Shown one piece after another: positions 47,801 through 59,076 of a DNA stretch of 64,000 nt. How positions within the stretch are numbered: the stretch's first letter is position 1; every line of letters starts with the position of its first letter. Position numbers and translations under genes: made by a program. Under the pieces are notes generated by a model that did no database searches, was not told the origin of the DNA, and saw only the letters and a program-made list of their open reading frames with translations. Origin of the DNA: an uncultured Prolixibacteraceae bacterium (lineage in GTDB: Bacteria > Bacteroidota > Bacteroidia > Bacteroidales > FEN-979); contig CAYSAU010000004.1 of assembly GCA_964429135.1 (NCBI GenBank), forward strand, positions 127,028 to 191,027. Reading direction: 5' to 3'.

Positions 47801-49889
47801 AGGTCAGGTGAATTTCCAGGATCAATCCACAGGAGCTGGTTCTGCCATCACAGATCATTACTGGATCTTTGAACCAGGTTATACCTCCACCCTGGTCAAC
47901 CCGACTCATGTATTTCCGGTAACCAATATGAAATACTTTGTTCAACTGATCGTCACCGATAATTTCGGATGTAAGGATACCATCGGTGACAGTGTGTTTG
48001 TGAAACCCGGGTTCAGTTTTACCTTTACCAATGATACGGTTTGTCTGGGTTATCCGACCCATTTCAATCCCATCAACAATGCTGAAGGGGATAGCCTTTA
48101 CTCTGTGGCCTGGAATTTCGGAGATCCGAATTCAGGACCGGCAAATATTTCATACCAGTACAGACCTCAGCATATTTTCACCCAACCCGGATTATATTCC
48201 GTGAAAATGAAAGCATGGAATTCCGATAACTGTGTGGATAGCATTTACAGGGATATACAGGTATTTGCGCCGCCCAAAGCTGCTTTTGCCTTCCAGAACC
48301 CGCCCTGCGACAGTACGGTATATTTCCATGATTCCACGATGATTACAGGTAACGGGACCATTGCCAGCTGGGAGTGGAGATTCGGTGACGGAACACCTCC
48401 TCTGATTATTCCAGCTCCCGGTCCGGGAAGCACTTCTCATTTATATGTTAACGCGGGCTATTATCCAGTGACGCTGATCATTACCAATACAAGTGGATGT
48501 GTTGACAGTCTGACAAAGATCGTACAAAGATTCCCATGCATCAAAGCAGTATTTGAATATCCAGACACCCTGCGATGTGCCCGTTATCAGATCTCATTCT
48601 CTGACAGCTCACTGCCGGTTTCCATGATCACTCAATGGCATTGGAAATGGGGTGACGGAAAGGATACTACCTATACCAGTCATGGGTCACCGATTACTCA
48701 TATCTATGCAGATTCGGGAAGATATGCGGTTACTCTGGCCATACGGGCTTTGCTTGATGGGGTCACGATCAAGGACAGCATGACAAGATTTGTCACTGTT
48801 CATCCGACACCCTACTCCCTCTTTTCAAATATGGGCGTCTGTCTGAATCAACCGACCATCTTCCTGGATACTTCCAGAACATTCGGAGAACCTATTAAAC
48901 AATGGAACTGGGAATTCGGGGAACCAACATCCGGTGTTAATGACACTTCCACAAAACAGAATCCTGTTCATAAATATATGAATAAAGGTCTTTATGATGT
49001 AGAACTTCTGGTCATGAACCGTTTCGGTTGTAAAGATTCACTGACCAAAACCACCCGGGTTTATGGTTTGCCTGAAGCCCATTTTGCCAGTTCGGTAGCT
49101 TGTACCGGAGATCCAACTTATTTCACCGATAATTCGATCCTGTCAGATACCATAGCGGGTTTCTGGGCATGGAATTTTGGCGAGCTAAATTCTCAGAAAG
49201 ATACCTCCAACCTCCAGAATCCTGAATACAGATATAGAACGGAAGGTGATTACCTGGTTCGGTTTATTGTGAAAGATTACTATGGTTGCAAGGACACCAT
49301 TGATTCTACCATCAGGGTGAACATTACTCCGACCAGCGCCTTTACTTTTACAGAGAATTTTGACGGACGCCAGGGTAAAGTGAAGCTGAATAACCATTCG
49401 GATGGAGCCACGGTTTACAATTGGGATTTTGGCAACGGAATGACTTCTACTGAGGATAATCCCATTGTGAGTTATACGGAAGATGGAACATACATCATCA
49501 AACTGATTGCCTTGAACCAGTTTGATTGTTCTGACACCACTTTCTTCGAGTACAAATTGTTGTTTAAAGGACTATATGTACCTAATGCCTTCTCACCAAC
49601 CAGTACCATTCTTGCAGTGAGGCTGTTCCAACCTGTTGGCATGAATCTGAAGCAGTATCATATTACAGTGTTTGACAGTTGGGGTCATCTGATGTGGGAA
49701 TCCACCAAACTTGACGATAAAGGAAGACCGGCTGAAGGATGGGATGGTACCTATAACGGGAATATCATGCCTCAGGGGAATTATATGTGGAAAATCAAAG
49801 CCCTTTTTGTTGATGATTCTCCATGGAACGGCTCTGATATCGGTGTAGGCGAATATAGTACCATGGGCTCTGTGACATTAATCAGATAA
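41805..49889 (+). CDS. giant cell-surface protein with about 28 PKD repeats and a T9SS type B (gliding-motility-associated, CHU_C-type) C-terminal domain
   Basis: It is 2694 aa with a signal peptide. I counted about 28 occurrences of the W-x-F-G-D-G/P PKD core motif, each in an ~85-90 aa unit with paired Cys. The C-terminus YVPNAFSPTS...VFDSWGHLMWES...GWDGTYNGNIMPQGNYMWKIKA matches the type B sorting domain. Confidence 0.88.
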   Translation: MFHRFIRFALLATLLTTSMFRIAAQPCADTEPRITGPDVVCASLTNTITYITPAISGHNYSWTITRTSTGSGGWSVVGSTTTNQLDIRWTAPGNYLLTLTEGVSASPCTPVQTTLSVTVQPYLVAYFTYVATSECFNNIVDFQGDRSSPPSGDPTLTYNWTFTDGSWTTTSNIANPQISFPSTPGVTYEATLRVSKTDAFGRVWEDAITDYIYVDPNKYKPIALFTATPVGCLYDGIRFDASASQPTHVITSESILHFTWDFGDGNVVTYPGTQPIVVHNYTTYGNYTVLLTVTNTKYCTETTTPYILNVANTIPLSQFTLSPACLNEQTVFDPRNSITPTGTITDLFWTFGDGSVATTHDVNELVNHTYTELDIPQPATLRVRNSLNCLSEIYQLPVTVNRSPRAVFTHGNACAGNPVTFTNTSQPEGGSSIVLHEWDFGDGNTSNEVNPIHLYTGTGTFPVTLTVTNNDGCRNITSDVITVSPRPDVEFTATLGSSPFVMNFQEVLNSTQFVGNNLVWDFGDGSGTTGPTPVHSYPGPGTFLVTLTGTDMMTQCPNTVQHSVTLGAIPSAYFSAIPDEQCQGSTISFVPQIPPGGFIQDEDWYFNDGSLPNPVHYDFPNTPAFPVHTFNSSGTYLVERYVNRGTANEAYHSLYVTIHQLPTAMFTWFSDPSWTHQLFACSGQPVYFHDLSNSEEPPGVIYKWYWDFDDPASGPDQFSTLKDPIHTFIGAGPFNVSLTVTDNLRDCKSTVTHQVIINPPIPVEFTYTNNNCVNQLAYFTPNPALIPSDYTWLWNFGDGFSINTPGSVSHLYSAVGVYPVTLTLTDQYGCTKSITHDITIIPGPIANFTFTSPTCHGQPIQFTDLSYVPNPYPDIITAWAWDFGDGVGTSTLKDPVYTYPTFNPGGYYVSLTVTTNRGCTATRTYLVQPIPSPAADFKIVPLTPACAGQTAQFQDDSQTNGVDIASWSWDFGDPGSGTGNYSTAQNPIHLFSAPGTYMVSLTVKNVNNCSNTRIKPITINTPPTADFSATEACQGTNTVFTDNSTTPAGTNITTYTWDFGDGFGGTGPNPQHAYATYGTYYVRLTILNTDLCINETVKPVFVHPNPLPDFSFSPSTCIGNPVSFTNLSTMPPGNGFSDRPDIWTWDFGDGSLPVTINYPDNPNIVHTFLGTAPSHIVTLTVTSNTGCVASIQKTVNSVPSPDANFSYSGSQCADQAIQFTDQTSEAGGGAIQSWYWTFGDPLSGASNTSTLRNPIHTFIGGPGTYTVTLLVTNTNGCTSTRSYDVIINMKPVSNFTATTPCENSPTIFTNTSTPNAAAIVSSFWEFGDGGTSNQSSPTYTYLTYGIKNVKLTVTNSNGCIHDTTKQVSVYPKPTASFTYSANACIGNPVNFVNHSTVPGSMSSYINTWVWDFNDGSPVQTITYPDNPDVTHTFLGTATSFTVRLTVTTTAGCTNFIDQTVNLVPSPVANFSYSSTNCIYQSVQFTDQTQTAGGSNIQFWSWNFDDPGSGSNNFSQLQNPVHIFQSSGTKTITLIVTSMNGCKDTVTKDLTINARPVSQFSATTACLGSVTTFTDESTPPSGASIVSHFWEFGDGGTSSIANPTYTYLLAGNHNVTLTVTTNQGCTKDTTIQVTVLGKPISSFTYTSPNCSTDSVYFTDHSSTPHGSITKWEWNFQDGSPVVTRNYPESPNVAHKFPNGGTFNVKLTITTSDDCVSEKTLPVQVEFAPLANFSFAANACALSPIQFTDNSQPNGGAPVVNWNWNFGDPGSGSNNTSIVQNPTHAFTAGGTYDVYLIVTNVNGCRDTIQKSITVNNAPVAIFTADTSCLTSPTQFIDQSTTSPGNIIAWAWNFGDPASGTNNTSTLQNPTHIYNSPGTYTVLLTVTNTATCTKDTSMQVTVNPKPVALFSYSASCVGDSTQFTDLSIAPGSSVTSWLWDFNDGSPTVNQQNPMHAFMTSGTFQVKLVVTNLSNCKDSVIIPVVTRPTPTAAFQYVNFFCPAGQVNFQDQSTGAGSAITDHYWIFEPGYTSTLVNPTHVFPVTNMKYFVQLIVTDNFGCKDTIGDSVFVKPGFSFTFTNDTVCLGYPTHFNPINNAEGDSLYSVAWNFGDPNSGPANISYQYRPQHIFTQPGLYSVKMKAWNSDNCVDSIYRDIQVFAPPKAAFAFQNPPCDSTVYFHDSTMITGNGTIASWEWRFGDGTPPLIIPAPGPGSTSHLYVNAGYYPVTLIITNTSGCVDSLTKIVQRFPCIKAVFEYPDTLRCARYQISFSDSSLPVSMITQWHWKWGDGKDTTYTSHGSPITHIYADSGRYAVTLAIRALLDGVTIKDSMTRFVTVHPTPYSLFSNMGVCLNQPTIFLDTSRTFGEPIKQWNWEFGEPTSGVNDTSTKQNPVHKYMNKGLYDVELLVMNRFGCKDSLTKTTRVYGLPEAHFASSVACTGDPTYFTDNSILSDTIAGFWAWNFGELNSQKDTSNLQNPEYRYRTEGDYLVRFIVKDYYGCKDTIDSTIRVNITPTSAFTFTENFDGRQGKVKLNNHSDGATVYNWDFGNGMTSTEDNPIVSYTEDGTYIIKLIALNQFDCSDTTFFEYKLLFKGLYVPNAFSPTSTILAVRLFQPVGMNLKQYHITVFDSWGHLMWESTKLDDKGRPAEGWDGTYNGNIMPQGNYMWKIKALFVDDSPWNGSDIGVGEYSTMGSVTLIR
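45111..47505 (+). repeat. three tandem copies of a ~800-nt super-repeat, each encoding three PKD domains
   Basis: Units start at about 45111, 45914 and 46710. Within each unit the PKD cores follow the same order: F(G/N/Q)DGS(P/L) with YP(D/E)(N/S)P, then F(G/D)DP.SG..N.S, then a third PKD. The third is EFGDGGTS in units 1-2 and a second GDP-type core in unit 3. Boundaries are approximate. Confidence 0.7.
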
Positions 49890-49908: not shown

Positions 49909-51018
49909 ATGAAAAGAAGCATTATATATCCATTCCTGTTGTTATTGGGATCACTTTTTCTCAATCTGGCGGCCCATGGGCAGGACATGAACTACTCCCA
50001 GTATTTCAGCACACCTATCTATTATAATCCGGCTTTTACCGGTCTGAATACCGGTTTAAGGGCAAGGTTTTTATTCAGGGATCAATGGCCAAGTTTACCC
50101 ATTGATTATAAGTCTTATTATTTTTCGGCAGACTTGGGTGATCGTAACCTGCCCGGATCAGGTGGGTTGGGAATAACCATCAATTCGGATACGCCTGGTA
50201 TTGGGTTGATCAATAACCTTTCTGCCGCCCTGAATATCGGCGTCCGCATTCCTATCACTGCTTTTCTGGTGGCCCAGGTTGGGATCAAAGCGGCTGTAAT
50301 GCAGAGAAAAATTAACTGGGAGAAACTGGTGTTTGCTGATAACCTGGATCCACGCTATGGCAATATTTATCAGACTTCTTTTGTTGCACCTGATGCCAAT
50401 AAACGGGTGGTTCCTGATTTCGGCGCTGGAGGTATCCTTCAGTTCATGAGTCCGAATTCTAATATTTCAGGGAATGTGGGATTTGCTGTGGATCATATTT
50501 TCAGACCGGATGTCGGATTTCTTTCCACCGGCGCTTCTCCTTATCCCCGCAAATGGGTTGGGCATGCCGATATCGTTATTTCAGCCGGTTCACCCGGCTC
50601 TACCTCAACTCAATATCGTGGTTCTGATGAACCGTTGAAGATAAATATCGGGGCTTTATATCAGAATCAGGCCGATCTGAATTCACTGCAGGTGGGTTTA
50701 AATCTGTTAAAATTTAATATCTATTTGGGAGGATGGTATAAAACCACCATGACTGGTCTTCCAAACAGTATTCTTGCATTGGTAGCCGGGTACCGATATA
50801 TGTTCCAGGATAACATGAGCATTAAATTCATGTATTCCTATGACCTTCAGATTTCCGGTGCGCTCCAGGGTACTGGGGGGGCTCATGAAATCAGTCTCGT
50901 TCTGGAGTTTGATAAATTATCTTTATTTGGCGGAGGTGGAAGTGGGGGTGGATACCTCCCCGGTGGTGGCGGACGTTCACGTAACGGCGGAGCCATGGAA
51001 TGTCCTTCCTTCTATTAA
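49909..51018 (+). CDS. PorP/SprF family type IX secretion system membrane protein
   Basis: It has a signal peptide, then QDMNYSQYFSTPIYYNPAFTG, which is the family hallmark. It has a beta-barrel-like alternating pattern and a Gly-rich tail ending ECPSFY. It lies immediately downstream of a type B CTD gene. Confidence 0.85.
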   Translation: MKRSIIYPFLLLLGSLFLNLAAHGQDMNYSQYFSTPIYYNPAFTGLNTGLRARFLFRDQWPSLPIDYKSYYFSADLGDRNLPGSGGLGITINSDTPGIGLINNLSAALNIGVRIPITAFLVAQVGIKAAVMQRKINWEKLVFADNLDPRYGNIYQTSFVAPDANKRVVPDFGAGGILQFMSPNSNISGNVGFAVDHIFRPDVGFLSTGASPYPRKWVGHADIVISAGSPGSTSTQYRGSDEPLKINIGALYQNQADLNSLQVGLNLLKFNIYLGGWYKTTMTGLPNSILALVAGYRYMFQDNMSIKFMYSYDLQISGALQGTGGAHEISLVLEFDKLSLFGGGGSGGGYLPGGGGRSRNGGAMECPSFY

Positions 51019-51031
51019 TATCACCTACAGA

Positions 51032-53014
51032 ATGGATTTTCCTTTCATTCTTGTATTGCTGATTCTAACTATTTTCATCCTCATCCTGCCTTCCAGGGTT
51101 CGTTTTTTCTATACTCTTTTTGTGACAGGACTGATCATTGTGATCACCTCCATACCCGCTGTTGATACCCTGTTTCATGGGTCAAGGTCTTCTTTGGTTT
51201 TTTATGACCAGGAATTGCTGGGTACGGTGACTTTTACACTCGATGGTCTTAGCGCATTTTTTATCCTGCTGACCAACTTCTCCGTCTTCATGGGCCTGCT
51301 TTATTCAAATGGGTATCTGAAGTCATATCAGAAAAATAAAACCAGGGCCAGCTTGTCTTTGCATTATTTTAGCTATTGCTGGTTGCACCTTTCCATGCTG
51401 GCTGTGCTGATGCTTCGCGACGGACTTGCTTTTTTGATTGCCTGGGAATTGATGGCTGTATCCTCCTTTATGCTGATTCTTTTTGACGCTGAAATCAGAA
51501 CAAACCTGAAAATAGCTGTAAATTATCTGATACAGATGCATATTGGATTGGTATTGTTAGTCATAGCCTTTCTTATGGAAGGAATAGATACTGGCCATTT
51601 TGGTTTTGACGGGCTGACGACTTATTTTTCCAGGCATCCCAATGCACCCTTATGTTTTCTTTTCTTTGCCGGATTCGCGATTAAGGCTGGCTTTATTCCC
51701 TTCCATACCTGGCTTCCGGAAGCACATCCAGCAGCTCCTTCTCATGTTTCAGGGGTCATGTCAGGAGTGATGATTAAAATGGGAATATATGGTATCGTCC
51801 GGGTGCTTACTTATGTTCAGTCTGATTTTATAACCATTGGAATGACTTTGCTGATCATTTCTGCTCTGACTGGCTTATATGGGGTGATGATGGCAATTGT
51901 TCAGCATGACCTGAAAAAGCTACTGGCCTATCACAGTATTGAAAACATTGGCATCATAGGGATTGGTTTGGGATTGGGATTACTGGGATTGGGATTACAT
52001 CGACCACCCCTCGTAATACTAGGATTTGCAGGCAGTTTGTTACATGTGCTTAACCATTCTTTGTTTAAGCCCTTATTGTTTTTCAGCGCAGGTTCCGTTT
52101 ACAAGGCTTATCATACAAGAAATATAGAACAGCTTGGTGGTGTGATTCATAAAATGCCCAAAACCTCGGGTTTATTTATGATAGGCGCATTATCCATTTG
52201 CGGACTTCCGCCTCTGAATGGATTCATCTCAGAGTTCCTTATCTATTATGGTTTGATTATTGGAATGTCAGCAACAGTGGTTTATTATTCCATCTCCTTT
52301 CTCCTGACCATCATTGCTTTAACGCTCATCGGTGGACTGGCTATTTTCTGTTTTACCAAAGCCTCGGGTATAGTTTTCCTCGGATCTGGCAGAACGCGTA
52401 TTGATCATGAAATAAAGGAAGTTGAAACTGGGATGTTAATCCCCCAGTATCTGATCTCCTTCATGATCATTCTCATCGGATTTATTCCCATACTATTTAT
52501 TAATCCTCTTTTGGGCATAGTTTCTTCTGTTTTTCAAGTTCCTACGGGAGAACTTGCGACAACGCTATTACCGGTTCTTGATAAGATTGTTTTGCTGAGC
52601 GTTGTCCTGATTCTTTTCGTTATTGTTTTATTGTGGGTAAGGAAGCGGAAGCTGAATTCAGCCAATGTATTCACTGCGGATACTTGGGGATGCGGATATA
52701 CTGCCGCGACAACACGTCAGCAATATTCGGCTACTTCCTATGCTGCCAATTATGCCGAATTGGCTCATCCGGTTTTACAGGAAAAAACGGACTACGCTGA
52801 AATTCATGAAGAGGATATTTTTCCTGGTAAACGTTCATTTGCCTTTCATCCATTGGATATATTCAAATCGATTCTGAATAAGATCACAGACTATTCCATG
52901 TTGGTGTTAAAAAAAATCGCCCGCCTGCAAACTGGTAACATTCAGCATTATATTCTCTATGCCTTCATTTTTATTCTGGTTATTTTTGTTTTGCTTTACC
53001 TGGAACTGATATAA
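51032..53014 (+). CDS. antiporter-like membrane subunit (HyfB / NuoL-like; EhrA-like)
   Basis: The start is placed at the ATG at 51032 (MDFPFILV); the ORF-track start at 50840 lies inside porP/sprF. It has IAWELMAVSSF (TM5 Glu), AIKAGFIPFHTWLPEAHPAAPSHVS (TM7 Lys), SIENIG and HSLFKPLLFFSAGS (TM12 Lys). Confidence 0.85.
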   Translation: MDFPFILVLLILTIFILILPSRVRFFYTLFVTGLIIVITSIPAVDTLFHGSRSSLVFYDQELLGTVTFTLDGLSAFFILLTNFSVFMGLLYSNGYLKSYQKNKTRASLSLHYFSYCWLHLSMLAVLMLRDGLAFLIAWELMAVSSFMLILFDAEIRTNLKIAVNYLIQMHIGLVLLVIAFLMEGIDTGHFGFDGLTTYFSRHPNAPLCFLFFAGFAIKAGFIPFHTWLPEAHPAAPSHVSGVMSGVMIKMGIYGIVRVLTYVQSDFITIGMTLLIISALTGLYGVMMAIVQHDLKKLLAYHSIENIGIIGIGLGLGLLGLGLHRPPLVILGFAGSLLHVLNHSLFKPLLFFSAGSVYKAYHTRNIEQLGGVIHKMPKTSGLFMIGALSICGLPPLNGFISEFLIYYGLIIGMSATVVYYSISFLLTIIALTLIGGLAIFCFTKASGIVFLGSGRTRIDHEIKEVETGMLIPQYLISFMIILIGFIPILFINPLLGIVSSVFQVPTGELATTLLPVLDKIVLLSVVLILFVIVLLWVRKRKLNSANVFTADTWGCGYTAATTRQQYSATSYAANYAELAHPVLQEKTDYAEIHEEDIFPGKRSFAFHPLDIFKSILNKITDYSMLVLKKIARLQTGNIQHYILYAFIFILVIFVLLYLELI

Positions 53015-53925
53015 TGGGATGTCTGCTTGCTATCGTCACTGCCCTGTTTTTTCCCGGGATCATCCTCCGGATGAAAAGTTTGTCAAGCGGTCGGAAAGGG
53101 CCAAAGATAATGCAGCCCTGGAGAGACATAATGGTATTGTTACAAAAAGGAAGCGTTTTTAGCAGGGTGTCGAGTTATGTCTTTCGCATCGCTCCGGTAA
53201 TTTATTTATCCACCATTTTTTGTGCACTGCTGTTGTTGCCCTTTCCCGGGCTTCCATCAGTCTTTGGTTTTGATGGTGATTTTGTGCTTTTTGCCTATAT
53301 GCTTGCCCTGGGAAAGTTTTTATTTATCCTATCAGCGCTTGATACCGGAAGCAGTTTTGAAGGAATGGGGGCAAACCGTGAAGCCTTGTACAGTATGCTA
53401 ACCGAACCTGCTTTTTTCATTCTATTTGGGACCTTGTCATTGCTTACTGGTTATACATCCATGCAGCAGATCTTCGAATCCTTCCAGTTTGTAGGGCATA
53501 ACTCATTTATAATCGGGTTTATTGCGGTTTACCTCCTGATTCAGATCGCCATGATTGAGAATAGCCGTATGCCGGTGGATGATCCAAAGACACACTTGGA
53601 GCTGACCATGGTTCACGAAGTGATGATTCTTGACCATAGCGGATTCGACCTGGCCTTGATCCATATCGGAACAGCATTGAAATTTGCCATGTACGGGTCG
53701 CTGGTGGCAAACTTCCTGATCCCTGTCGAATGGGCGCTGTCAGCAAGAATAGCCCTATTTTTTGCCATACAATTGACATTTGCCGCTATGATAGGGGTGA
53801 TGGAGTCATTCCGCGCACGGAAAAAGCTGGCCAATAATCCGCAATTCATAGTCACCCTGAGCGTCATTGCACTGGTCGCTTTTATTCTGGTTTTATTGAT
53901 CACTTTCAATATGATCGCATCATGA
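53014..53925 (+). CDS. NuoH-like membrane subunit (HyfC / HycD-like; EhrB-like)
   Basis: It is a 303 aa polytopic protein with DTGSSFEGMGANREALYSMLTEPAFF and MPVDDPKTHLELTMVHEVM, typical of HycD/HyfC. An ATGA-type overlap joins it to the previous gene. Confidence 0.8.
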   Translation: MGCLLAIVTALFFPGIILRMKSLSSGRKGPKIMQPWRDIMVLLQKGSVFSRVSSYVFRIAPVIYLSTIFCALLLLPFPGLPSVFGFDGDFVLFAYMLALGKFLFILSALDTGSSFEGMGANREALYSMLTEPAFFILFGTLSLLTGYTSMQQIFESFQFVGHNSFIIGFIAVYLLIQIAMIENSRMPVDDPKTHLELTMVHEVMILDHSGFDLALIHIGTALKFAMYGSLVANFLIPVEWALSARIALFFAIQLTFAAMIGVMESFRARKKLANNPQFIVTLSVIALVAFILVLLITFNMIAS

Positions 53926-54539
53926 CCGTAATGCTCGTTATCGTTTTTGCAATTACCCTGATTTACCTGAGTATGACAAAACGTTTTCTCATCTTTACCG
54001 GACTCATCGGGTTTCAGGGAGTTTTGCTGTTTGTCCTTTCACTGCTTGAACTTCATTCCATTACCCTGGGAACCCTGCTGTTTGTGGCCATTGAAACTTT
54101 GGTTTTCAAAGTGATCGTAGTTCCCTACCTGCTCTTCCGGATCATTGATAAGACGGGTGAAGCCCGCGTACACGATAAAGCGCTTCCTGGTTTTTACAGT
54201 CTTTTATTTATAAGCCTTGGCCTGATACTTAGTATTGTGGTTTCTTTTTCCATGAATTCCAGACCATCCACGATGTTATATTTTATTGTCGCCTTCTTTG
54301 CAGTATATACAGGGCTGTTTATCATTATCTCCCATAGAAAAATATTCTCTCATCTCGTTGGTTTTTTGGTCATTGAGAATGCTGTGTTGCTGCTTTCCCT
54401 TGCCATAGGAAGTGAAATGCCTATGCTGATCAACATTGGCATTCTCCTCGATATTTTTGTCAGTGTATTAATCCTGGGAATTTTCGTGATGAAACTTAAG
54501 CAAACAACGCATGAATTAACAATGTTGAAAGATGATTAA
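53922..54539 (+). CDS. NuoK-like membrane subunit (HyfE-like; EhrC-like)
   Basis: It is 205 aa with about 6 TM segments and membrane-embedded Glu residues in FVAIETLVF and LVIENAVLLLSLA. It overlaps the previous gene by 4 nt. Confidence 0.75.
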   Translation: MTVMLVIVFAITLIYLSMTKRFLIFTGLIGFQGVLLFVLSLLELHSITLGTLLFVAIETLVFKVIVVPYLLFRIIDKTGEARVHDKALPGFYSLLFISLGLILSIVVSFSMNSRPSTMLYFIVAFFAVYTGLFIIISHRKIFSHLVGFLVIENAVLLLSLAIGSEMPMLINIGILLDIFVSVLILGIFVMKLKQTTHELTMLKDD

Positions 54540-54594
54540 TGCAATGTTTGAAGAATGTTATAATAAAAAGACAACTCTTAATCGTAACCGGTAA

Positions 54595-56034
54595 ATGTCA
54601 TCAGTCGGATATATTTTGATGGTTTTTTTCGCGGTTTTTCTCCTGCTGACGATTATCGTGGGATTATTGCACAGTAAAGTGATTGCCAGAGGGTTGACGA
54701 TCCTTTTTGTGATCATTCATCTGCTTTTCACTGTTTATTGCTGGATGCATCTGGGTGAAACGGTTCTCGAGTATTTTACTTTCGATCCGCTGGGTGTATT
54801 GTTATTGTCTGTCCTTTCATTACTCACGATAACCACAGTTTATCATGGTTTTATTTATGTAAAGGAAGATTCTCCGCGTATCTATGCCATCTATCATGCT
54901 GCATTAATGGCGTTAATTATCGCCATGTCGGGGGCTTATCTTGCCAATGGCATGACTACGGTTTGGATCTTTGTTGAGGCCACGACCCTCGCAGTGGCTG
55001 CGCTGATCTATCATGACCGGTCATCCATCGCCCTTGAGGCAACCTGGAAATATGTTTTTGTCTGTTCAGTCGGAATTGCCCTAGCTTATCTCGGGATACT
55101 TTTCCTCGGATTTACGGTGCATGATGGTCGGTTGCTTCATCTTTCTTTCAGCAACATCATTGAAATTGCCCGCATGGCCAACCCGCTTTACCTGAAAATT
55201 GCTTTTGTGTTTGTCCTGGTGGGATACAGCACCAAAATGGGATTATTTCCCATGCATACGGTTACTGTGGATGCTCATACTGTGGCGCCTCCGCCGATCA
55301 GCGCTTTTATTTCTACTACCCTTATGAACGTCGGATTCCTAGCTATTTTTCGCATCTATGCGCTTTTCTCGGCTACTACCATTCTTCCATTCATGAACCA
55401 TGTTTTGATTTTGTCAGGCGTGTTATCCTTGCTTGTTTCAGCAGGATATATGCTCAAAGCAAAACACAATAAAAGGATGCTCGCTTATTCAAGCCTTGAA
55501 AATATGGGCATAGTCGCCATTGCACTGGGAATTGGAGGCATCGGTTATTATGCCGCCATCCTTCATATCGTCCTTCATTCTTTTACAAAAGCAGGATTGT
55601 TCTACCAGATCGGTCAATCTTACAAGGTTATGGGTACCTATAAACTCGATGAATCAGGGAATTATATGACGCTATATCCTGCCGGAGCCGTTGCCCTTCT
55701 GCTTGGTTTTCTATGCATCACTGCTATTCCCCCTTCCGGAATGTTCATTTCGGAATTATATTTGATGAAAGCCATGATTATTTCCGGAAACTGGGTATTG
55801 CTGGCACTGACGGCTATTTTGCTTTGCTTTGTCTTATATGCCTTACTCACCCGTGTTCTTCATATTGTTTATTCCCAGCCAAGGGAAAAGCCATTGCATG
55901 AACCCAGAAAAGTGAATCCCTGGCAATCGGTCAGTCAATATATCCTCTTTGGCCTGGTCATTTTAATCTGTTTTATGCAACCTGAGCCATTGCGCCATCT
56001 GATTGAATCCATCATCAATGCCTTACCAAAATAA
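54595..56034 (+). CDS. antiporter-like membrane subunit (HyfF / NuoN/M-like; EhrD-like)
   Basis: It has FVEATTLAVAAL (Glu), STKMGLFPMHTVTVDAHTVAPPPISAF (Lys), SSLENMG and HSFTKAGLFYQIG (Lys). Confidence 0.82.
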   Translation: MSSVGYILMVFFAVFLLLTIIVGLLHSKVIARGLTILFVIIHLLFTVYCWMHLGETVLEYFTFDPLGVLLLSVLSLLTITTVYHGFIYVKEDSPRIYAIYHAALMALIIAMSGAYLANGMTTVWIFVEATTLAVAALIYHDRSSIALEATWKYVFVCSVGIALAYLGILFLGFTVHDGRLLHLSFSNIIEIARMANPLYLKIAFVFVLVGYSTKMGLFPMHTVTVDAHTVAPPPISAFISTTLMNVGFLAIFRIYALFSATTILPFMNHVLILSGVLSLLVSAGYMLKAKHNKRMLAYSSLENMGIVAIALGIGGIGYYAAILHIVLHSFTKAGLFYQIGQSYKVMGTYKLDESGNYMTLYPAGAVALLLGFLCITAIPPSGMFISELYLMKAMIISGNWVLLALTAILLCFVLYALLTRVLHIVYSQPREKPLHEPRKVNPWQSVSQYILFGLVILICFMQPEPLRHLIESIINALPK

Positions 56035-57587
56035 TGAAGGAAACCCGATATATCGAGCTGTTTTCTAATCCCGGGAGTGTTCTCCTCGAGGAGATACCCA
56101 TCATGGGATATGATGATTTTTTGTCCTTTACCAATTTGTTGATGGGTGAAGAAGGAACCCATTGCGCAGCCTACTTCGTCTTGCCTCAGAGAGACAAATT
56201 CCGGTTTATTTGCTGTATGGCTGCCGATGAAAATCACGCCCTTGTGATCTATTCTCATGAACAGGAAATCAGCCCCCTCCCATCACTACCCTCCATATCA
56301 GAGAAGCATTTTCAATTTCATGTCTTTGAAAGGGAAATCCATGAACAGTATGGCATCGGGTTTACCGGTCATCCCTGGCTGAAACCCATCCGATATCCTT
56401 ATAACAGGGCAGATCAGTCGGCCATCATGGATTGTTATCCCTTCTATTCCATTGAAGGGGAGGAGCTTCATGAAGTGGGTGTTGGCCCGGTTCATGCCGG
56501 GATCATTGAACCAGGGCATTTTCGCTTTATTGGTAATGGTGAAAAGGTTCTTCATCTGGAGATACACCTCGGATATCAGCACAGGGGTTTGGAACGACTG
56601 ATGGTTGAAAAGCAGGATATTCTTGCCCGGACTTTACTTGCTGAAAGCATCGCCGGTGATACCGTAGTGGGTCACACAATGGCTTATTCAGGCTTGATGG
56701 AATCACTTTCGGGTAAAACTATTTCTTCCCGCCTGTCAGTAGAAAGGATCATTGCCCTGGAACTCGAACGTATAGGGATTCATATTGGCGATACGGCTGC
56801 AATATGTACGGATATTGCTTATCAGTTCGGACAGGTCGTAAATGAGGCACTCCGGACCATCATTATCAATACTACCCAGTTATGGTGCGGGAATCGTTTT
56901 GGCAAAGGACTTATTCGTCCGGGAAGAACGCATTATCCCCTGCAGGAACCCCTTGCTAAAACCATTATGAAAAATCTGGATGAGGTGGAAGAACGTTATC
57001 TTCATATGGCCGACAGAATTTTCTCCCTGCCAAGCGTATTGGGACGTTTTGAAAGTATCGGGAAACTTTCCACCATGCAGGCCACCCTGATCGGAGCCGT
57101 GGGTATGACGGCAAGAACCAGCGGTATGCACCGCGATGTTCGCTGGTCTCATCCTTTCGGCGCTTATGTTAATCATCCTTATAACCCCGTGATTCTGAAA
57201 AAAGGAGATGTCTGGTCAAGGGCCATGCTTCGTAAAATGGAAGTGGTAAAATCTATTGAAATTATCAGGCAACTGTTGAAGGAGTTAAAGACAAATGATG
57301 TACACCTTGCGAATCCCGGAATCGCTGATTCAAAATATGGTAGCGAAAACCCAAAGTATTTCCTTGCCCCTTCTTCATTTGCTGTTTCCCTTGTTGAAGG
57401 CTGGCGTGGAGAAATTTGTCATATCGCGGTGACCGATGACGATGGCAAGATCATTTCTTATAAGATAAAAGATCCCTCGTTTCATAACTGGCAGGCATTA
57501 GCATTGGCAGTCAGAAACCAGGAAATCTCGGATTTCCCATTATGTAATAAGAGCTTTAATCTTTCATATTGTGGACATGACCTTTGA
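56034..57587 (+). CDS. HycE/HyfG-like large subunit (NuoC-NuoD fusion) lacking NiFe-binding cysteines (EhrL-like)
   Basis: It has a NuoC-like N-terminus (FEREIHEQYGIGFTGHP) and the NuoD/HycE-like motifs VGPVHAGIIEPGHFRF and GYQHRGLERL. The L1 position reads SIAGDTVVGH instead of R-x-C-G-x-C-x-x-x-H. The C-terminus reads NLSYCGHDL-stop instead of DPCxxCxxR plus extension. There is no CxxC anywhere in the 517 aa. Confidence 0.82.
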   Translation: MKETRYIELFSNPGSVLLEEIPIMGYDDFLSFTNLLMGEEGTHCAAYFVLPQRDKFRFICCMAADENHALVIYSHEQEISPLPSLPSISEKHFQFHVFEREIHEQYGIGFTGHPWLKPIRYPYNRADQSAIMDCYPFYSIEGEELHEVGVGPVHAGIIEPGHFRFIGNGEKVLHLEIHLGYQHRGLERLMVEKQDILARTLLAESIAGDTVVGHTMAYSGLMESLSGKTISSRLSVERIIALELERIGIHIGDTAAICTDIAYQFGQVVNEALRTIIINTTQLWCGNRFGKGLIRPGRTHYPLQEPLAKTIMKNLDEVEERYLHMADRIFSLPSVLGRFESIGKLSTMQATLIGAVGMTARTSGMHRDVRWSHPFGAYVNHPYNPVILKKGDVWSRAMLRKMEVVKSIEIIRQLLKELKTNDVHLANPGIADSKYGSENPKYFLAPSSFAVSLVEGWRGEICHIAVTDDDGKIISYKIKDPSFHNWQALALAVRNQEISDFPLCNKSFNLSYCGHDL

Positions 57588-57712
57588 AACGGAATTCAAT
57601 AATGTATCGTTACGTCAAAATATCCATGCAAGAATAATGGATCATGATGGTTCCAATCCCTGCATCTGCCTGATAATTTTTTTGCTTAGCAACGATCAAA
57701 GCACTATCCAAA

Positions 57713-58462
57713 ATGCGTGAATTTAAAATTTTCAGGAGTCATGGGAAGCAGTTTATTCCCGATTTGCGGAATGCCGAATTGCCCGGAATCTTTCGCGGAA
57801 GACCGGTAATCAGCGAGGATATAGTTCCAGATGAAGCCAGCAAACTCTCAAAAATTTGTCCTGTTGGCGCGATCCAGGCCGCCCCCTTTTCCCTTGATCT
57901 CGGCCGATGTGTTTTTTGCGGGGAGTGTGAGTTTTTCTTGCCGGGCAAGGTTTGTTTTACCAATGATTATCGCCTGGCTGCCAACAGGAGGGAAGACCTG
58001 ATCATTAAAGCTGGAGAAAATCAATCGCTTCGATTGTTTGAACCAGCGGTAAACCCTGAAATACGGAAAGTTTTCAAACATTCTCTAAAATTGCGACAGG
58101 TTTCTGCCGGTGGGGATAATTCCTGTGAAATGGAGTTGAATGCTGCCGGCAATGTCAATTTCGATATGGGAAGATACGGAATACAGTTTGTTGCATCACC
58201 CCGTCATGCGGATGGGATGGTCTTAACAGGACCCCTTACGCGAAACATGTCAGAAGCGATCAAACTCACCTGGGAAGCAATCCCTTCGCCGAAAATCTTA
58301 ATTCTGGTTGGATCTGATGCCATCAGCGGAGGGTTGTTTTTAGAAAGTCAGGCAATTAACCGCCAATTTTTGGAAGATCATCCCGCAGATTTATATCTGC
58401 CCGGAAATCCGACCCACCCCCTGACCTTCATCAATGGGATCATGGATCTGCTTGGGATTTAA
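57713..58462 (+). CDS. fusion of a degenerate ferredoxin (HycF/HyfH-like) and a NuoB/HycG-like small subunit lacking most FeS ligands (EhrS-like)
   Basis: The N-terminal half has FRGRP...SKICPVGAI...CVFCGECEFFLP, which leaves one complete 4Fe-4S ligand set. The C-terminal half has FVASPRHADGMVLTGPLTR, the NuoB/HycG hallmark. The cluster-ligand positions read GGDNSCEME, GSDAISGG and PGNPTHP. Confidence 0.8.
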   Translation: MREFKIFRSHGKQFIPDLRNAELPGIFRGRPVISEDIVPDEASKLSKICPVGAIQAAPFSLDLGRCVFCGECEFFLPGKVCFTNDYRLAANRREDLIIKAGENQSLRLFEPAVNPEIRKVFKHSLKLRQVSAGGDNSCEMELNAAGNVNFDMGRYGIQFVASPRHADGMVLTGPLTRNMSEAIKLTWEAIPSPKILILVGSDAISGGLFLESQAINRQFLEDHPADLYLPGNPTHPLTFINGIMDLLGI

Positions 58463-59076
58463 TATACTCCGTTTTTTCTGATGTCTGACAATATGGTCAC
58501 AATGGGGGAGCACCAGTGCTTAATTCCCATTCCTGCAGCTTTTGCCGTATATTTTCGGGTACGGATTACCGTTTTTGTGTTAGGATCGAAATAAGTCACC
58601 CAGACATTGGCCAGCTCGGTGGTTTTATCAAAGCTCTCAACGATGATCACGAGACCTATCCCGTCTTTTTCAGCGGGAGTATATTTTTTAACCATTTTTT
58701 CCACCTTATCCTCGGTAAACTGGGGTTTTTCCTTGTCGTTGTTGCCAAAGAGATCGGAAATGTCGATATTGGAATTACGTTCACCAACAACCGATAAGTC
58801 GATGAATACATAGTTCATGCCAAGCAATTTTTTCAAATCCATGGGGAAAGTGGTGAACCTGCCTTCTGCAAAAGCGGTATTCCAGGCTGGAATATCAAAG
58901 GAGAGCATCTTCTCGCGATCCATAAATGGGCCATAAAATCGTGCCTGGGAAAAATCAAGCCCAAACCATATCAACGAGCGTGCATTTCTGACATCCCCAA
59001 GGGTATATTTCGATTGAGAAAGCCCTGTCTGGGAGAAAATTGCCAGGAGCAAGGACAGGATAAATAATTTTTTCAT
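58459..59076 (-). CDS. hypothetical secreted protein
   Basis: It has a signal peptide (MKKLFILSLLLAIFSQTGLSQ) and is 205 aa long. I recognise no family. Its stop overlaps the convergent small-subunit stop in a TTAA. Confidence 0.5.
   Translation of the reverse strand: MKKLFILSLLLAIFSQTGLSQSKYTLGDVRNARSLIWFGLDFSQARFYGPFMDREKMLSFDIPAWNTAFAEGRFTTFPMDLKKLLGMNYVFIDLSVVGERNSNIDISDLFGNNDKEKPQFTEDKVEKMVKKYTPAEKDGIGLVIIVESFDKTTELANVWVTYFDPNTKTVIRTRKYTAKAAGMGIKHWCSPIVTILSDIRKNGVY

What the first reader, a model, noticed from the sequence alone, without database searches (positions are those of the whole stretch)
56034..57587. Hydrogenase large-subunit homologue with no CxxC motif and no C-terminal maturation extension
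The protein is collinear with HycE, with a NuoC-like domain followed by GPVHAGIIEPGHFRF and GYQHRGLERL. Where group 4 enzymes have R-x-C-G-x-C-x-x-x-H, it reads E-S-I-A-G-D-T-V-V-G-H (Cys to Ala and Cys to Thr). Where they have D-P-C-x-x-C-x-x-R followed by a cleavable tail, it reads N-L-S-Y-C-G-H-D-L and then stops. No C-x-x-C pair exists anywhere in the 517 aa. It also lacks the Tyr/His quinone-site signature of NuoD at these positions, as far as I can align by eye. It therefore looks neither like a hydrogenase nor like a quinone reductase active site.
Basis: seen in the sequence. Interest (0 to 1): 0.7.

Follow-up and report, generated by a model that had tools for sequence, protein, structure and literature searches.

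The report
Cysteine-less hydrogenase-like Ehr complex subunit
This gene encodes the large subunit of an 'Ehr' complex, a known but functionally unsolved relative of membrane hydrogenases and respiratory complex I that has lost its nickel-iron site. In this Bacteroidota version the partner small subunit has also lost its iron-sulfur cluster.

Summary
ORF 56034-57587 encodes a 517-aa fused NuoC/NuoD-type protein collinear with E. coli HycE. It has no CxxC motif. A207/T210 and S511/G514 sit exactly where close Cys-containing relatives have the four [NiFe] ligands.

It is not decay. The replacement residues are conserved down to about 35% identity, and the protein lies in a six-gene operon (51032-58462) kept in nearly all of 80 Bacteroidota loci.

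It is also not new. This is the Ehr (energy-converting-hydrogenase-related) complex, with the ehrABCDLS layout. It was named in Geobacter, is excluded from HydDB as a non-hydrogenase, and is repeatedly described as 'function unknown'. The rhizobial Hyq 'endo-hydrogenase' has the same layout and is also Cys-less.

One addition from this work: in this Bacteroidota clade the small subunit (57713-58462) replaces three of the four ligands of the proximal N2-type [4Fe-4S] cluster with conserved Asp, Asp and Asn. It keeps one ferredoxin-type cluster. Ehr relatives in five other phyla keep all four N2 cysteines. The former active site therefore appears cut off from electrons, while the antiporter-like membrane subunits keep their key charged residues.

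Most likely this is an ion-translocating machine whose peripheral arm no longer does redox chemistry.

The parts
51032..53014 (+). ehrA: NuoL/HyfB-like antiporter-type membrane subunit, 660 aa from ATG 51032. The mechanical ORF starts at 50840 and overlaps the PorP gene.
   Evidence: Pfam Proton_antipo_M. Best NCBIfam hit is 'hydrogenase 4 subunit B', 487 bits, below its cut-off of 667. The first 64 residues of the long ORF are unconserved in 77 homologues; conservation starts at M65, which is nt 51032. E203, K282 and K410 are conserved in at least 95%.
53014..53925 (+). ehrB: NuoH/HycD-like membrane subunit, 303 aa
   Evidence: Pfam NADHdh. Conserved acidic residues E123, E131, E182, D189, D190, E196, E202, D207, D212 and E264 in 71 homologues.
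53922..54539 (+). ehrC: HyfE-like membrane subunit, 205 aa
   Evidence: NCBIfam 'hydrogenase 4 membrane subunit' (HyfE), E = 2.6e-11, below cut-off. E58 and E152 are conserved.
54595..56034 (+). ehrD: HyfF/NuoM/N-like antiporter-type membrane subunit, 479 aa
   Evidence: Pfam Proton_antipo_M. Alignment to MbhH (6cfw_H) pairs E128, K214, H328 and K332 with identical MbhH residues in the antiporter-like motifs, and E387 with an MbhH Lys. Assigning these to the TM5/TM7/TM12 charged residues rests on my knowledge of complex I. All are conserved in at least 95% of 74 homologues.
56034..57587 (+). ehrL: the finding. Fused NuoC-NuoD / HycE-like large subunit without Ni/Fe ligands, 517 aa.
   Evidence: AlphaFold model pTM 0.82; best PDB fold match is HycE 7z0s_E, TM 0.77 over 526 columns.
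56484..56528 (+). Residues 151-165, GPVHAGIIEPGHFRF: the beta1-beta2 loop motif shared with group 4 hydrogenases. E159 is retained. I158 sits at the position of Nqo4 His38.
   Evidence: Alignments to HycE and Nqo4. G151, P152, H154, A155, G156, I158, E159, P160, G161, F163, R164 and F165 are each at least 90% conserved across the 104 cluster representatives, including the four Cys-containing hydrogenases.
56643..56675 (+). Residues 204-214, ESIAGDTVVGH: the former L1 motif (RxCGxCxxxH). Cys1 became A207 and Cys2 became T210. D209 lies between them and is Ehr-specific.
   Evidence: Among 100 Ehr-type representatives: D209 92%, G208 93%, position 207 Ala or Ser 86%, position 210 Ser or Thr 82%. 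The Cys-containing relatives read C-G-[AV]-C.
57546..57584 (+). Residues 505-517, NKSFNLSYCGHDL: the former L2 motif (DPCxxCxxR). Cys3 became S511 and Cys4 became G514. The protein ends four residues later.
   Evidence: S511 99%, G514 99%, Y512 92%, D516 100%. C513 is not universal (Cys 42, Ser 28, Ala 22 of 100).
57713..58462 (+). ehrS: small subunit, 249 aa. An N-terminal NuoI/HycF-like half-ferredoxin is fused to a NuoB/HycG-like domain.
   Evidence: Pfam Oxidored_q6 at residues 136-246. Weak NuoI/HycF matches at residues 53-111. Alignments to MbhJ and HycG.
57857..57928 (+). EhrS residues 49-72: C49(P) ... C66-x-x-C69-x-x-C72, one complete ferredoxin-type [4Fe-4S] ligand set. The second cluster of the 2x[4Fe-4S] fold is missing.
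   Evidence: All four Cys are present in 193 of 193 distinct Bacteroidota-type EhrS. The Acidobacteriota and Magnetoovum homologues have both full CxxCxxCxxxCP motifs.
58115..58126 (+). EhrS residues 135-138, D-N-S-C, where hydrogenases and complex I have C-x-x-C (N2/proximal-cluster ligands 1 and 2).
   Evidence: MbhJ GSCNGC and HycG GGCNGC align to GGDNSC. D135 is in 183 of 193 sequences. C138 is in only 128 of 193.
58316..58318 (+). EhrS D202, at the position of N2 ligand 3 (G-x-C in hydrogenases and NuoB).
   Evidence: Asp in 190 of 193 sequences.
58406..58408 (+). EhrS N232, at the position of N2 ligand 4 (P-G-C-P became P-G-N-P).
   Evidence: Asn in 192 of 193 sequences.

Best explanation
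WHAT IT IS (confidence about 0.9). The ORF is EhrL, the large subunit of a six-subunit Ehr complex encoded by one operon: ehrA-B-C-D-L-S, 51032-58462. It descends from a group 4 [NiFe]-hydrogenase large subunit of the HycE/HyfG type. All four metal-ligand cysteines have been replaced by a new residue set that is under selection: [A/S]-G-D-[S/T] and S-Y-x-G. It is a maintained gene, not a decaying one.

HOW IT MOST LIKELY WORKS (inferred, confidence about 0.35-0.4). The pocket cannot hold a Ni-Fe centre. It also lacks the His and Tyr that bind the quinone head-group in complex I.

In this Bacteroidota clade the small subunit has in addition lost the proximal N2-type [4Fe-4S] cluster; its ligand positions are now Asp, Cys/Ala, Asp and Asn. 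Only one ferredoxin-type cluster remains, in the N-terminal domain. By homology with complex I and MBH, removing the proximal cluster leaves a gap too long for physiological electron tunnelling to the old active site. The peripheral arm is therefore probably not a redox catalyst.

The four membrane subunits keep the Glu/Lys/His residues of the Mrp/complex I antiporter modules, and EhrB keeps many conserved acidic residues. I therefore read the complex as a cation/proton-translocating machine that works like an Mrp-type antiporter or a proton-motive-force-driven transporter. The conserved acidic and polar pocket would act as a structural cap, gate or ion-binding vestibule. That pocket comprises EhrL E159, E204, D209, D480 and D516, and EhrS D135, D202 and N232. 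The remaining [4Fe-4S] cluster would be structural or a redox sensor.

SHOWN: homology, loss of ligands, conservation, synteny, and absence of a conserved partner gene. INFERRED: absence of electron transfer, ion translocation, and the role of the pocket.
For: Homology and fold: Pfam Complex1_30kDa + Complex1_49kDa; HycE 7z0s_E is the best sequence hit (E = 2.8e-31) and the best fold hit (TM 0.77).

Ligand loss, in register with the nearest Cys-containing relatives: ER[IV]CG[AV]C..SH / NKSF.LCY[SA]C.D[RL] versus E.[IV][AS]GD[ST]...H / NKSFNLSY[CSA]G.DL. There is no CxxC.

Selection: replacement residues are invariant in 26 and 77 sequences at 60-73% identity and 90-100% conserved in 100 cluster representatives down to about 35% identity.

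Operon: the A-B-C-D-L-S order holds in nearly all of 80 Bacteroidota loci. No flanking gene family occurs in more than 10 of 80 loci.

Small subunit: N2 ligand positions are D135/C138/D202/N232. 192 of 193 distinct Bacteroidota-type EhrS have at most one Cys at these four positions, while C49/C66/C69/C72 are present in 193 of 193. Homologues from Acidobacteriota, Nitrospirota (Magnetoovum), Wallbacteria, Binatia and Acidimicrobiales keep all four N2 cysteines.

Membrane arm: conserved E/K/H in EhrA and EhrD and conserved acidic residues in EhrB.

Literature: Ehr is defined as group-4-related complexes that lack the Ni/Fe ligands and have antiporter-like subunits, with function unknown (PMC6349859, PMC4378227, PMC10284858, bioRxiv 10.1101/765248). 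HydDB trains its classifier to exclude Ehr as not metabolising H2 (PMC5037454). The ehrABCDLS and EhrA/C/L/S subunit names appear in PMC6688271 and PMC7894505.
Against: No experiment or structure exists for any Ehr complex in the literature I could search, so the function is entirely inferred.

The four cysteines of the remaining [4Fe-4S] site are invariant. That would be odd for a purely non-redox machine and leaves room for redox chemistry at another site.

The complex lacks the MrpB/C/E/F/G-type small subunits of true Mrp antiporters.

The AlphaFold model has pLDDT below 50 exactly at the beta1-beta2 loop (153-158) and the C-terminus (501-517). The geometry of the pocket therefore could not be examined, and the distance argument rests on homology with complex I and MBH rather than on a model of this complex.

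I could not place the protein in a tree with named Ehr references such as Geobacter EhrL. Membership rests on the published defining features, not on phylogeny.

Genetic work on the Cys-less Hyq complex of Azorhizobium links that relative to H2 recycling (PMC2650096, PMC3357923). This warns against assuming that every Cys-less complex is unrelated to H2.
Confidence: 0.6

Rival explanations
1. The classical Ehr hypothesis. The complex is still a redox-driven ion pump. It takes electrons from ferredoxin, or from a docking oxidoreductase such as formate dehydrogenase, and passes them to an unknown acceptor, coupling this to H+/Na+ export.
For: This is the function suggested for Ehr in general (PMC6349859; bioRxiv 10.1101/765248). 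In Geobacter, Ehr subunits are more abundant on formate (PMC7894505). The single ferredoxin-type cluster is invariant, 193 of 193. The antiporter modules are intact.
Against: In this clade the proximal N2 cluster ligands are gone in 192 of 193 sequences, so there is no wire to the large-subunit pocket. No fdh, nuoEF or other oxidoreductase gene is conserved next to the operon in 80 loci. The quinone ligands are absent.
Confidence: 0.25
2. The conserved polar and acidic pocket is a new non-redox catalytic or metal-binding site, for example a carboxylate/His-ligated cation site or a hydration/dehydration centre. Its chemistry would be coupled to ion movement, by analogy with CO2-hydrating attachments on cyanobacterial NDH-1.
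For: Ehr-specific gains of Asp at positions 209 and 480, where the hydrogenase relatives have Ala/Val and Ser. Conserved Asp/Asp/Asn at the former N2 site. Strong conservation of the whole pocket.
Against: No known metal-site or enzyme motif was recognised by Pfam or NCBIfam beyond the complex I domains. H214 is only 67% conserved and no Cys is conserved family-wide. There is no substrate clue in the gene neighbourhood. This idea is pure inference.
Confidence: 0.1
3. A Hyq-type 'endo-hydrogenase': an H2:quinone oxidoreductase that uses a non-canonical catalytic site, as proposed for the Cys-less HyqG/HyqI of Azorhizobium caulinodans.
For: Same six-gene layout (hyqBCEFGI is equivalent to A-B-C-D-L-S). 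HyqG is likewise a 504-aa NuoC::D fusion lacking both CxxC motifs. Deleting hyq affects recycling of H2 in N2-fixing cultures (PMC2650096, PMC3357923).
Against: All HyqI orthologues keep four Cys for an N2-type cluster (PMC3357923), whereas EhrS here has Asp/Cys/Asp/Asn. The quinone-binding His and Tyr are absent. There is no hyqR-like regulator and no link to nitrogen fixation in the operon. The Hyq authors themselves call a Ni,Fe site in HyqG 'uncertain, if not unlikely'.
Confidence: 0.03
4. A decaying relic: a former hydrogenase operon losing function, with the ligand substitutions being neutral drift.
For: All metal ligands of two cofactors have been lost.
Against: All six ORFs are intact, and several abut or overlap at their start and stop codons. 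The replacement residues are invariant or nearly so across hundreds of sequences. The operon is syntenic in nearly all of 80 loci. At least 592 candidate stretches in species-representative genomes encode a relative.
Confidence: 0.02

Closest known systems
Ehr, the energy-converting / Ech-hydrogenase-related complex, ehrABCDLS. Named in Geobacter sulfurreducens (Coppi 2005) and surveyed by Marreiros et al. 2013 (BBA). Both are recalled from memory; the BBA paper is not held in the library.
   Same: [quoted passage not shown] Partner subunits are NuoL-like, NuoH-like, HyfE-like, NuoM/N-like and NuoB-like, with the same gene order. Some Bacteroidota loci carry two ehrA copies, which fits the seven Geobacter genes GSU0739-45 and the name 'EhrA-1'. 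Function is unknown (PMC4378227, PMC10284858).
   Different: In this Bacteroidota clade the small subunit has also lost the N2/proximal cluster ligands and one of the two ferredoxin clusters. Ehr-type operons sampled from five other phyla keep the N2 cysteines. I found no paper describing this; the key 2013 survey could not be read.
Hyq 'endo-hydrogenase' of Azorhizobium caulinodans and other diazotrophs (hyqRBCEFGI; PMC2650096, PMC3357923)
   Same: Same six structural genes in the same order. HyqG is a NuoC::NuoD fusion of 504 aa lacking the N- and C-terminal CxxC motifs.
   Different: HyqI keeps four Cys for an N2-type cluster and has no ferredoxin-like N-terminal domain. The hyq operon has a regulator, hyqR, and a genetic link to H2 recycling during N2 fixation. 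Neither feature is seen here.
E. coli formate hydrogenlyase HycE and hydrogenase-4 HyfG, group 4a [NiFe] hydrogenases (PDB 7z0s)
   Same: Best sequence and fold match. Same NuoC-NuoD fusion and the same GP.H....EPGHFR and RGxE motifs. The gene order resembles hyfB-C-E-F-G-(H)I.
   Different: HycE has RVCGICGFAH and DPCYSC plus a cleavable C-terminal tail; here these read SIAGDTVVGH and NLSYCG followed by the stop. HycG has four Cys for the proximal cluster; EhrS has one. No HyfA/HycB, formate dehydrogenase or maturation genes are in the operon.
Respiratory complex I NuoC/NuoD/NuoB (Nqo5/4/6)
   Same: Same fold and no Ni-Fe site. The membrane arm has homologous antiporter-like subunits and a NuoH-like subunit.
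   Different: The quinone ligands Nqo4 His38 and Tyr87 align to Ile158 and Gly208. Cluster N2 is absent. The NCBIfam NuoD score is 156 bits against a cut-off of 360. There is no NuoA/J/K set and no N-module.
Mbx/Mbs (Pyrococcus) and Mrp antiporters
   Same: MrpA/D-type subunits with conserved Glu/Lys. A peripheral NuoB/C/D-like module without hydrogenase activity, as in Mbs.
   Different: MbsL (6u8y_L) is a much weaker match, 47 bits against 112 for HycE. Mbx retains vestigial Cys (PMC4758237). From my knowledge of the solved MBS complex, it also keeps its FeS chain and has about 13 genes, including the Mrp small subunits. Here there are six genes and none of MrpB/C/E/F/G.

Membership tests
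Ehr (energy-converting hydrogenase-related complex) | Large subunit homologous to group 4 [NiFe]-hydrogenase large subunits / NuoD | tested here: met
   Pfam Complex1_49kDa + Complex1_30kDa. HycE E = 2.8e-31. Fold TM 0.77 to 7z0s_E.
Ehr (energy-converting hydrogenase-related complex) | Lacks the N-terminal RxCGxCxxxH and C-terminal DPCxxCxxH/R Ni/Fe-binding motifs (PMC4378227, PMC10284858) | tested here: met
   A207/T210 and S511/G514 at the four ligand positions. No CxxC anywhere.
Ehr (energy-converting hydrogenase-related complex) | Encoded with NuoL-like, NuoH-like, HyfE-like and NuoM/N-like membrane subunits and a small subunit (ehrABCDLS) | tested here: met
   for the window. The same order holds in nearly all of 80 related loci. 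Subunit names are from PMC7894505 and PMC6688271.
Ehr (energy-converting hydrogenase-related complex) | Groups phylogenetically with reference Ehr large subunits such as Geobacter EhrL | not tested
   No named reference sequence could be retrieved. The genome scan returned only Bacteroidota, and cluster names were generic. A crude NJ tree puts the window protein in a large Cys-less group separate from the four Cys-containing relatives.
Group 4 [NiFe] hydrogenase | Four Cys ligands in the L1 and L2 motifs of the large subunit | tested here: not met
Group 4 [NiFe] hydrogenase | Small subunit with four Cys binding the proximal [4Fe-4S] cluster | tested here: not met
   D135/C138/D202/N232 against the Cys positions of MbhJ and HycG. 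192 of 193 clade members have at most one Cys at these positions.
Group 4 [NiFe] hydrogenase | Hyp maturation genes and, for HycE-type enzymes, a C-terminal tail with its endopeptidase | tested here: inconclusive
   There is no tail: the stop follows ...GHDL. The nearest Cys-containing relatives also lack a tail. The rest of the genome was not available to search for hyp genes.
Complex I NuoD (quinone reductase) | Quinone head-group ligands His38 and Tyr87 (T. thermophilus Nqo4 numbering; established from complex I structures) | tested here: not met
   They align to I158 and G208. Both are invariant in relatives.
Complex I NuoD (quinone reductase) | Cluster N2 in NuoB as electron donor, and scores above the curated NuoD cut-offs | tested here: not met
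   N2 ligands are absent. NCBIfam NuoD scores 156 bits against a cut-off of 360, and TIGR01962 scores 128 against 459.
Hyq endo-hydrogenase (A. caulinodans type) | hyqBCEFGI layout with a Cys-less NuoC::D-type HyqG | tested here: met
   compared with PMC3357923.
Hyq endo-hydrogenase (A. caulinodans type) | HyqI with four conserved Cys for an N2-type 4Fe4S centre (PMC3357923) | tested here: not met
Mrp-type cation/proton antiporter | MrpA/MrpD-like subunits with the conserved TM5 Glu and TM7/TM12 Lys/Glu | tested here: met
   EhrD E128, K214, K332 and E387; EhrA E203, K282 and K410; all conserved in at least 95%. Assignment to named helices is by homology and my own knowledge.
Mrp-type cation/proton antiporter | Full MrpA-G subunit set, including MrpB/C/E/F/G | tested here: not met
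   Only six genes are present. The sole small membrane subunit is HyfE-like. The claim is therefore 'may work like' Mrp, not 'is a member of' Mrp.

The most novel reading that the evidence does not exclude
The Bacteroidota Ehr would be a naturally 'redox-dead' complex-I-type machine. It keeps the full NuoB/C/D-like cap and the antiporter arm, but it has lost the Ni-Fe site, the quinone ligands and the N2 cluster, replacing the cofactor ligands with conserved Asp and Asn residues. If so, it operates without electron transfer, as a secondary ion transporter or with a new non-redox or cation-binding site in the old active-site cavity. It would then show what the conserved coupling architecture of complex I does when the chemistry is removed.
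Probability: 0.3. Interest if true: 0.6.

Novelty: new member of a known kind. Interest (0 to 1): 0.3.

Why it matters
Ehr complexes are widespread. Here, 479 clusters at 50% identity match at E <= 1e-30, and at least 592 candidate stretches in species-representative genomes encode a relative. They are routinely mis-annotated as 'Ni,Fe-hydrogenase III large subunit' or 'NADH-quinone oxidoreductase subunit C'. They sit evolutionarily between membrane hydrogenases and complex I, yet no function has been shown.

For genome annotation, the practical point is that this operon should not be counted as H2 metabolism or as complex I.

For bioenergetics, the Bacteroidota clade offers a cleaner test case than other Ehr. 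Its iron-sulfur wire is also broken, which narrows the possible mechanisms and makes one question directly testable: does the complex-I-type membrane arm work here without redox chemistry?

Tried and rejected
1. The first literature query, with the bare term 'Ehr', returned only electronic-health-record and Ehrlichia papers. Later, more specific queries worked.

2. The defining review, Marreiros et al. 2013 (BBA), is not held. Whether it already notes N2-less Ehr small subunits could not be checked.

3. I tried to obtain a named Ehr reference (Geobacter EhrL) for a direct comparison. The genome-collection scan used patterns specific to Bacteroidota (WCGNRFGK, EGWRGEIC) and returned only that phylum. 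Two cluster-member look-ups gave only generic names.

4. A labelled phylogeny with groups 4a-4i, MbxL and NuoD could not be built because no labelled references were available. As substitutes I used relative bit scores (Cys-containing relative P0215 234 bits; HycE 112, MbhL 98, Nqo4 95, MbsL 47) and a crude NJ tree without support values.

5. Cavity analysis of the predicted structure was not possible. The model is good overall (pTM 0.82), but the active-site loop and the C-terminus have pLDDT below 50, and coordinates are not exposed.

6. The sigma-70 promoter and terminator scan gave counts at the shuffled expectation (23 found against 19.4 expected; 10 against 9.3) and was uninformative.

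7. I considered an alternative Cys-based metal site formed by C258, C285, C462, C504 and C513. I rejected it because none of these is conserved across the wider family.

8. I considered a conserved partner oxidoreductase next to the operon. None was found. The only 'conserved' extra ORFs are antisense shadows inside the ehr genes.

Full report
**1. The observation.**

The ORF at 56034-57587 (+) is real and encodes 517 aa. It carries a NuoC-like domain (Pfam Complex1_30kDa, residues 54-124) followed by a NuoD/HycE-like domain (Complex1_49kDa).

The best match among solved structures is E. coli HycE (7z0s_E, E = 2.8e-31), ahead of P. furiosus MbhL and T. thermophilus Nqo4. In that alignment HycE R-V-C-G-I-C-G-F-A-H pairs with S-I-A-G-D-T-V-V-G-H (residues 205-214). 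HycE S-L-D-P-C-Y-S-C pairs with S-F-N-L-S-Y-C-G (507-514), and the protein ends three residues later.

The protein has nine cysteines but no CxxC. An AlphaFold2 model built on 77 homologues (pTM 0.82, mean pLDDT 75.8) has HycE as its best PDB fold match (TM 0.77 over 526 columns), followed by the E. coli NuoCD fusion.

The quinone head-group ligands of complex I, Nqo4 His38 and Tyr87, align to Ile158 and Gly208.

**2. Not decay, and no alignment artefact.**

A search of 5.8 billion proteins filled the 8000-candidate limit. The best 120 hits are 59-99% identical, and those that carry a name are mostly Bacteroidota MAG proteins. In alignments of 26 and 77 of them, the residues around both former motifs are invariant: E204, G208, D209, H214, N505, K506, S507, L510, S511, Y512, C513, G514 and D516.

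An exhaustive HMMER search of cluster representatives at 50% identity found 479 clusters at E <= 1e-30. I aligned 104 full-length representatives, down to about 35% identity. One hundred share the same signature: position 207 Ala or Ser (86%), G208 (93%), D209 (92%), position 210 Ser or Thr (82%), S511 (99%), Y512 (92%), G514 (99%) and D516 (100%).

The other four representatives (P0215, P0220, P0261, P0266) are true Cys-containing relatives. They read ER[IV]-C-G-[AV]-C-..-SH and NKSF.L-C-Y-[SA]-C-.D[RL], in exactly the same register. No alignment shift can therefore restore the ligands.

These relatives also end without a C-terminal tail, so the missing maturation extension is not unusual in itself.

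Positions that separate the Cys-less group from these relatives are D209 (Ala/Val in the hydrogenases), D480 (Ser), S511 and G514. No cysteine is conserved across the whole Cys-less family, which rules out a relocated thiolate site.

**3. Genomic context.**

The gene is the fifth of six co-directional genes, several of which abut or overlap at their ends:
- a HyfB/NuoL-like subunit (true start ATG 51032)
- a HycD/NuoH-like subunit (53014-53925)
- a HyfE-like subunit (53922-54539)
- a HyfF/NuoM-like subunit (54595-56034)
- the large subunit (56034-57587)
- a 249-aa small subunit (57713-58462)

In 80 related loci from species-representative genomes, almost all Bacteroidota, the order A-B-C-D-L-S holds wherever the contig is long enough. 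Some loci have a duplicated first gene.

None of the window's neighbours is conserved elsewhere. These neighbours are the PorP/SprF gene, an unknown 205-aa ORF, an SDR gene and a DUF1214 gene. No other flanking family occurs in more than 10 of 80 loci. The operon is thus a self-contained unit with no conserved partner oxidoreductase.

**4. What it is called.**

This is the published definition of the Ehr complex. [quoted passage not shown]

Sulfobacillus genomes show 'six syntenic genes' homologous to nuoH, nuoL, HyfE and HyfB. Their large subunits lack RxCGxCxxxH and DPCxxCxxH/R, and the authors state that 'their function remains unknown' (PMC4378227). The same was said in 2023 for Nitrospira, where Ehr is placed close to group 4f (PMC10284858), and for Elusimicrobia (bioRxiv 10.1101/765248).

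HydDB explicitly excludes Ehr as homologous to hydrogenases but not metabolising H2 (PMC5037454). The subunit names (EhrA NuoL-like, EhrC HyfE-like, EhrL, EhrS; cluster ehrABCDLS) appear in PMC7894505 and PMC6688271.

A second literature thread describes the same architecture as the Hyq 'endo-hydrogenase' of Azorhizobium (hyqRBCEFGI). [quoted passage not shown]

**5. What is different here: the small subunit.**

Aligned to MbhJ and HycG, the four ligands of the proximal (N2-type) [4Fe-4S] cluster, G-x-C-N-G-C, G-x-C and P-G-C-P, read G-G-D-N-S-C, G-S-D and P-G-N-P in EhrS.

I examined 193 distinct EhrS sequences of this clade:
- D135 occurs in 183.
- D202 occurs in 190.
- N232 occurs in 192.
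- The one surviving Cys (C138) is dispensable: Cys in 128, Ala in 45, Asp in 9.
- 192 of 193 sequences have at most one Cys at the four positions.

The N-terminal NuoI/HycF-like domain keeps C49(P) plus C66-x-x-C69-x-x-C72 in all 193 sequences. That is one complete ferredoxin-type cluster. The complementary ligand set is gone.

Ehr operons from other phyla are less reduced:
- Acidobacteriota and Magnetoovum have two full ferredoxin motifs plus four N2 cysteines.
- Wallbacteria has one ferredoxin cluster plus N2.
- Binatia and Acidimicrobiales have the order S-A-B-C-D-L and a short small subunit with all four N2 cysteines.
- The Cys-containing relative P0215 has a separate 114-aa ferredoxin gene and a 158-aa small subunit.

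The window thus represents the most reduced state sampled: no Ni-Fe site, no N2 cluster and one lone cluster.

From memory of the T. thermophilus structure, the retained ligand set corresponds to cluster N6b, the one next to N2. I did not test this.

**6. Mechanism.**

Shown:
- The cofactor ligands are absent and have been replaced by conserved polar or acidic residues.
- The antiporter-like subunits keep their charged residues: EhrD E128, K214, H328, K332 and E387; EhrA E203, K282 and K410.
- EhrB keeps ten conserved acidic residues.
- EhrC keeps E58 and E152.

Inferred: in hydrogenases and complex I the proximal cluster bridges the ferredoxin-type clusters and the active site. From my knowledge of those structures, without it the remaining cluster should lie well beyond the roughly 14 A limit for physiological electron tunnelling from the old pocket. 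The pocket is then not a redox site.

The most economical reading is a cation/proton-translocating complex that works like an Mrp-type antiporter. Its peripheral module would serve as a cap, gate or ion vestibule, and the lone cluster would be structural or regulatory. I put this at about 0.35-0.4.

The alternatives are:
- the classical 'redox-driven pump with unknown substrates', about 0.25, weakened here by the N2 loss and by the lack of a conserved partner gene
- a new non-redox catalytic or metal site, about 0.1
- a Hyq-like H2:quinone enzyme, about 0.03, since HyqI keeps N2 and the quinone ligands are missing here
- decay, about 0.02

**7. Limits.**

- No named Ehr reference sequence could be retrieved, so membership rests on the defining features rather than a labelled tree.
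- The NJ tree has no support values.
- The structural model is unreliable exactly at the active-site loop and the C-terminus.
- The 2013 survey that might already mention N2-less Ehr could not be read.
- All functional statements are inference.

**8. Verdict.**

- The class is already known (Ehr/Hyq).
- This is a new, uncultured Bacteroidales member.
- Its clade is a possibly undescribed, further-reduced variant with a broken iron-sulfur wire.
- Interest is modest.

Noticed in passing
window 57713-58462 (EhrS); residues D135, C138, D202, N232 and C49, C66, C69, C72: The small subunit next to the finding has lost three of the four ligands of the proximal/N2 [4Fe-4S] cluster. The replacements (Asp, Asp, Asn) are conserved. 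It keeps only one ferredoxin-type cluster. Ehr relatives from five other phyla keep all four N2 cysteines.
   Followed up: yes
window 41805-49889 (+) and 49909-51018 (+): A 2694-aa protein made of about 27 PKD repeats, with a C-terminal CHU_C type IX secretion signal. It is immediately followed by a PorP/SprF-family T9SS membrane protein gene. This marks the organism as Bacteroidota. It is unrelated to the ehr operon and not conserved next to it elsewhere.
   Followed up: partly
window 50840-51031: The mechanical ORF for the first ehr gene starts at 50840 and overlaps the PorP gene by 179 bases. The first 64 residues are unconserved in 77 homologues. The real start is most likely ATG 51032, 14 bases after the PorP stop codon.
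   Followed up: yes
window 58459-59076 (-): A 205-aa ORF convergent with ehrS, overlapping its 3' end by 4 bases. It has no Pfam or NCBIfam match and no counterpart next to ehr in the 80 related loci.
   Followed up: partly
loci such as L029, L041, L043, L048, L049 and L053 (two EhrA matches each); L039: Many Bacteroidota loci carry two tandem ehrA (NuoL-like) genes, giving seven genes as reported for Geobacter (GSU0739-45). L039 has a rearranged order, L-A-B-C-D-S.
   Followed up: no
L081 2475-2834 and L087 10601-10939; L086 11617-12051: In distant Ehr operons (Binatia, Acidimicrobiales) an ArsR/SmtB-type HTH_5/HTH_20 regulator gene lies close to the operon. In Wallbacteria an Rrf2-family regulator follows it. 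This may hint at metal- or redox-responsive control. Only three loci were seen.
   Followed up: no
antisense strand of ehrA-S in the related loci (for example L001 8250-8642, 6583-7830): The only ORF 'families' shared by many loci outside the six genes are long antisense shadow ORFs inside the ehr genes. They are artefacts of codon composition, not genes.
   Followed up: yes
database names of homologues: Public annotations call the large subunit 'Ni,Fe-hydrogenase III large subunit' (JGI) or 'NADH-quinone oxidoreductase subunit C' (NCBI). They call the small subunit 'Ni,Fe-hydrogenase III small subunit' or 'NADH:ubiquinone oxidoreductase'. Both are misleading for a protein without Ni/Fe, quinone or N2 ligands. 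No NCBIfam model reaches its cut-off.
   Followed up: partly
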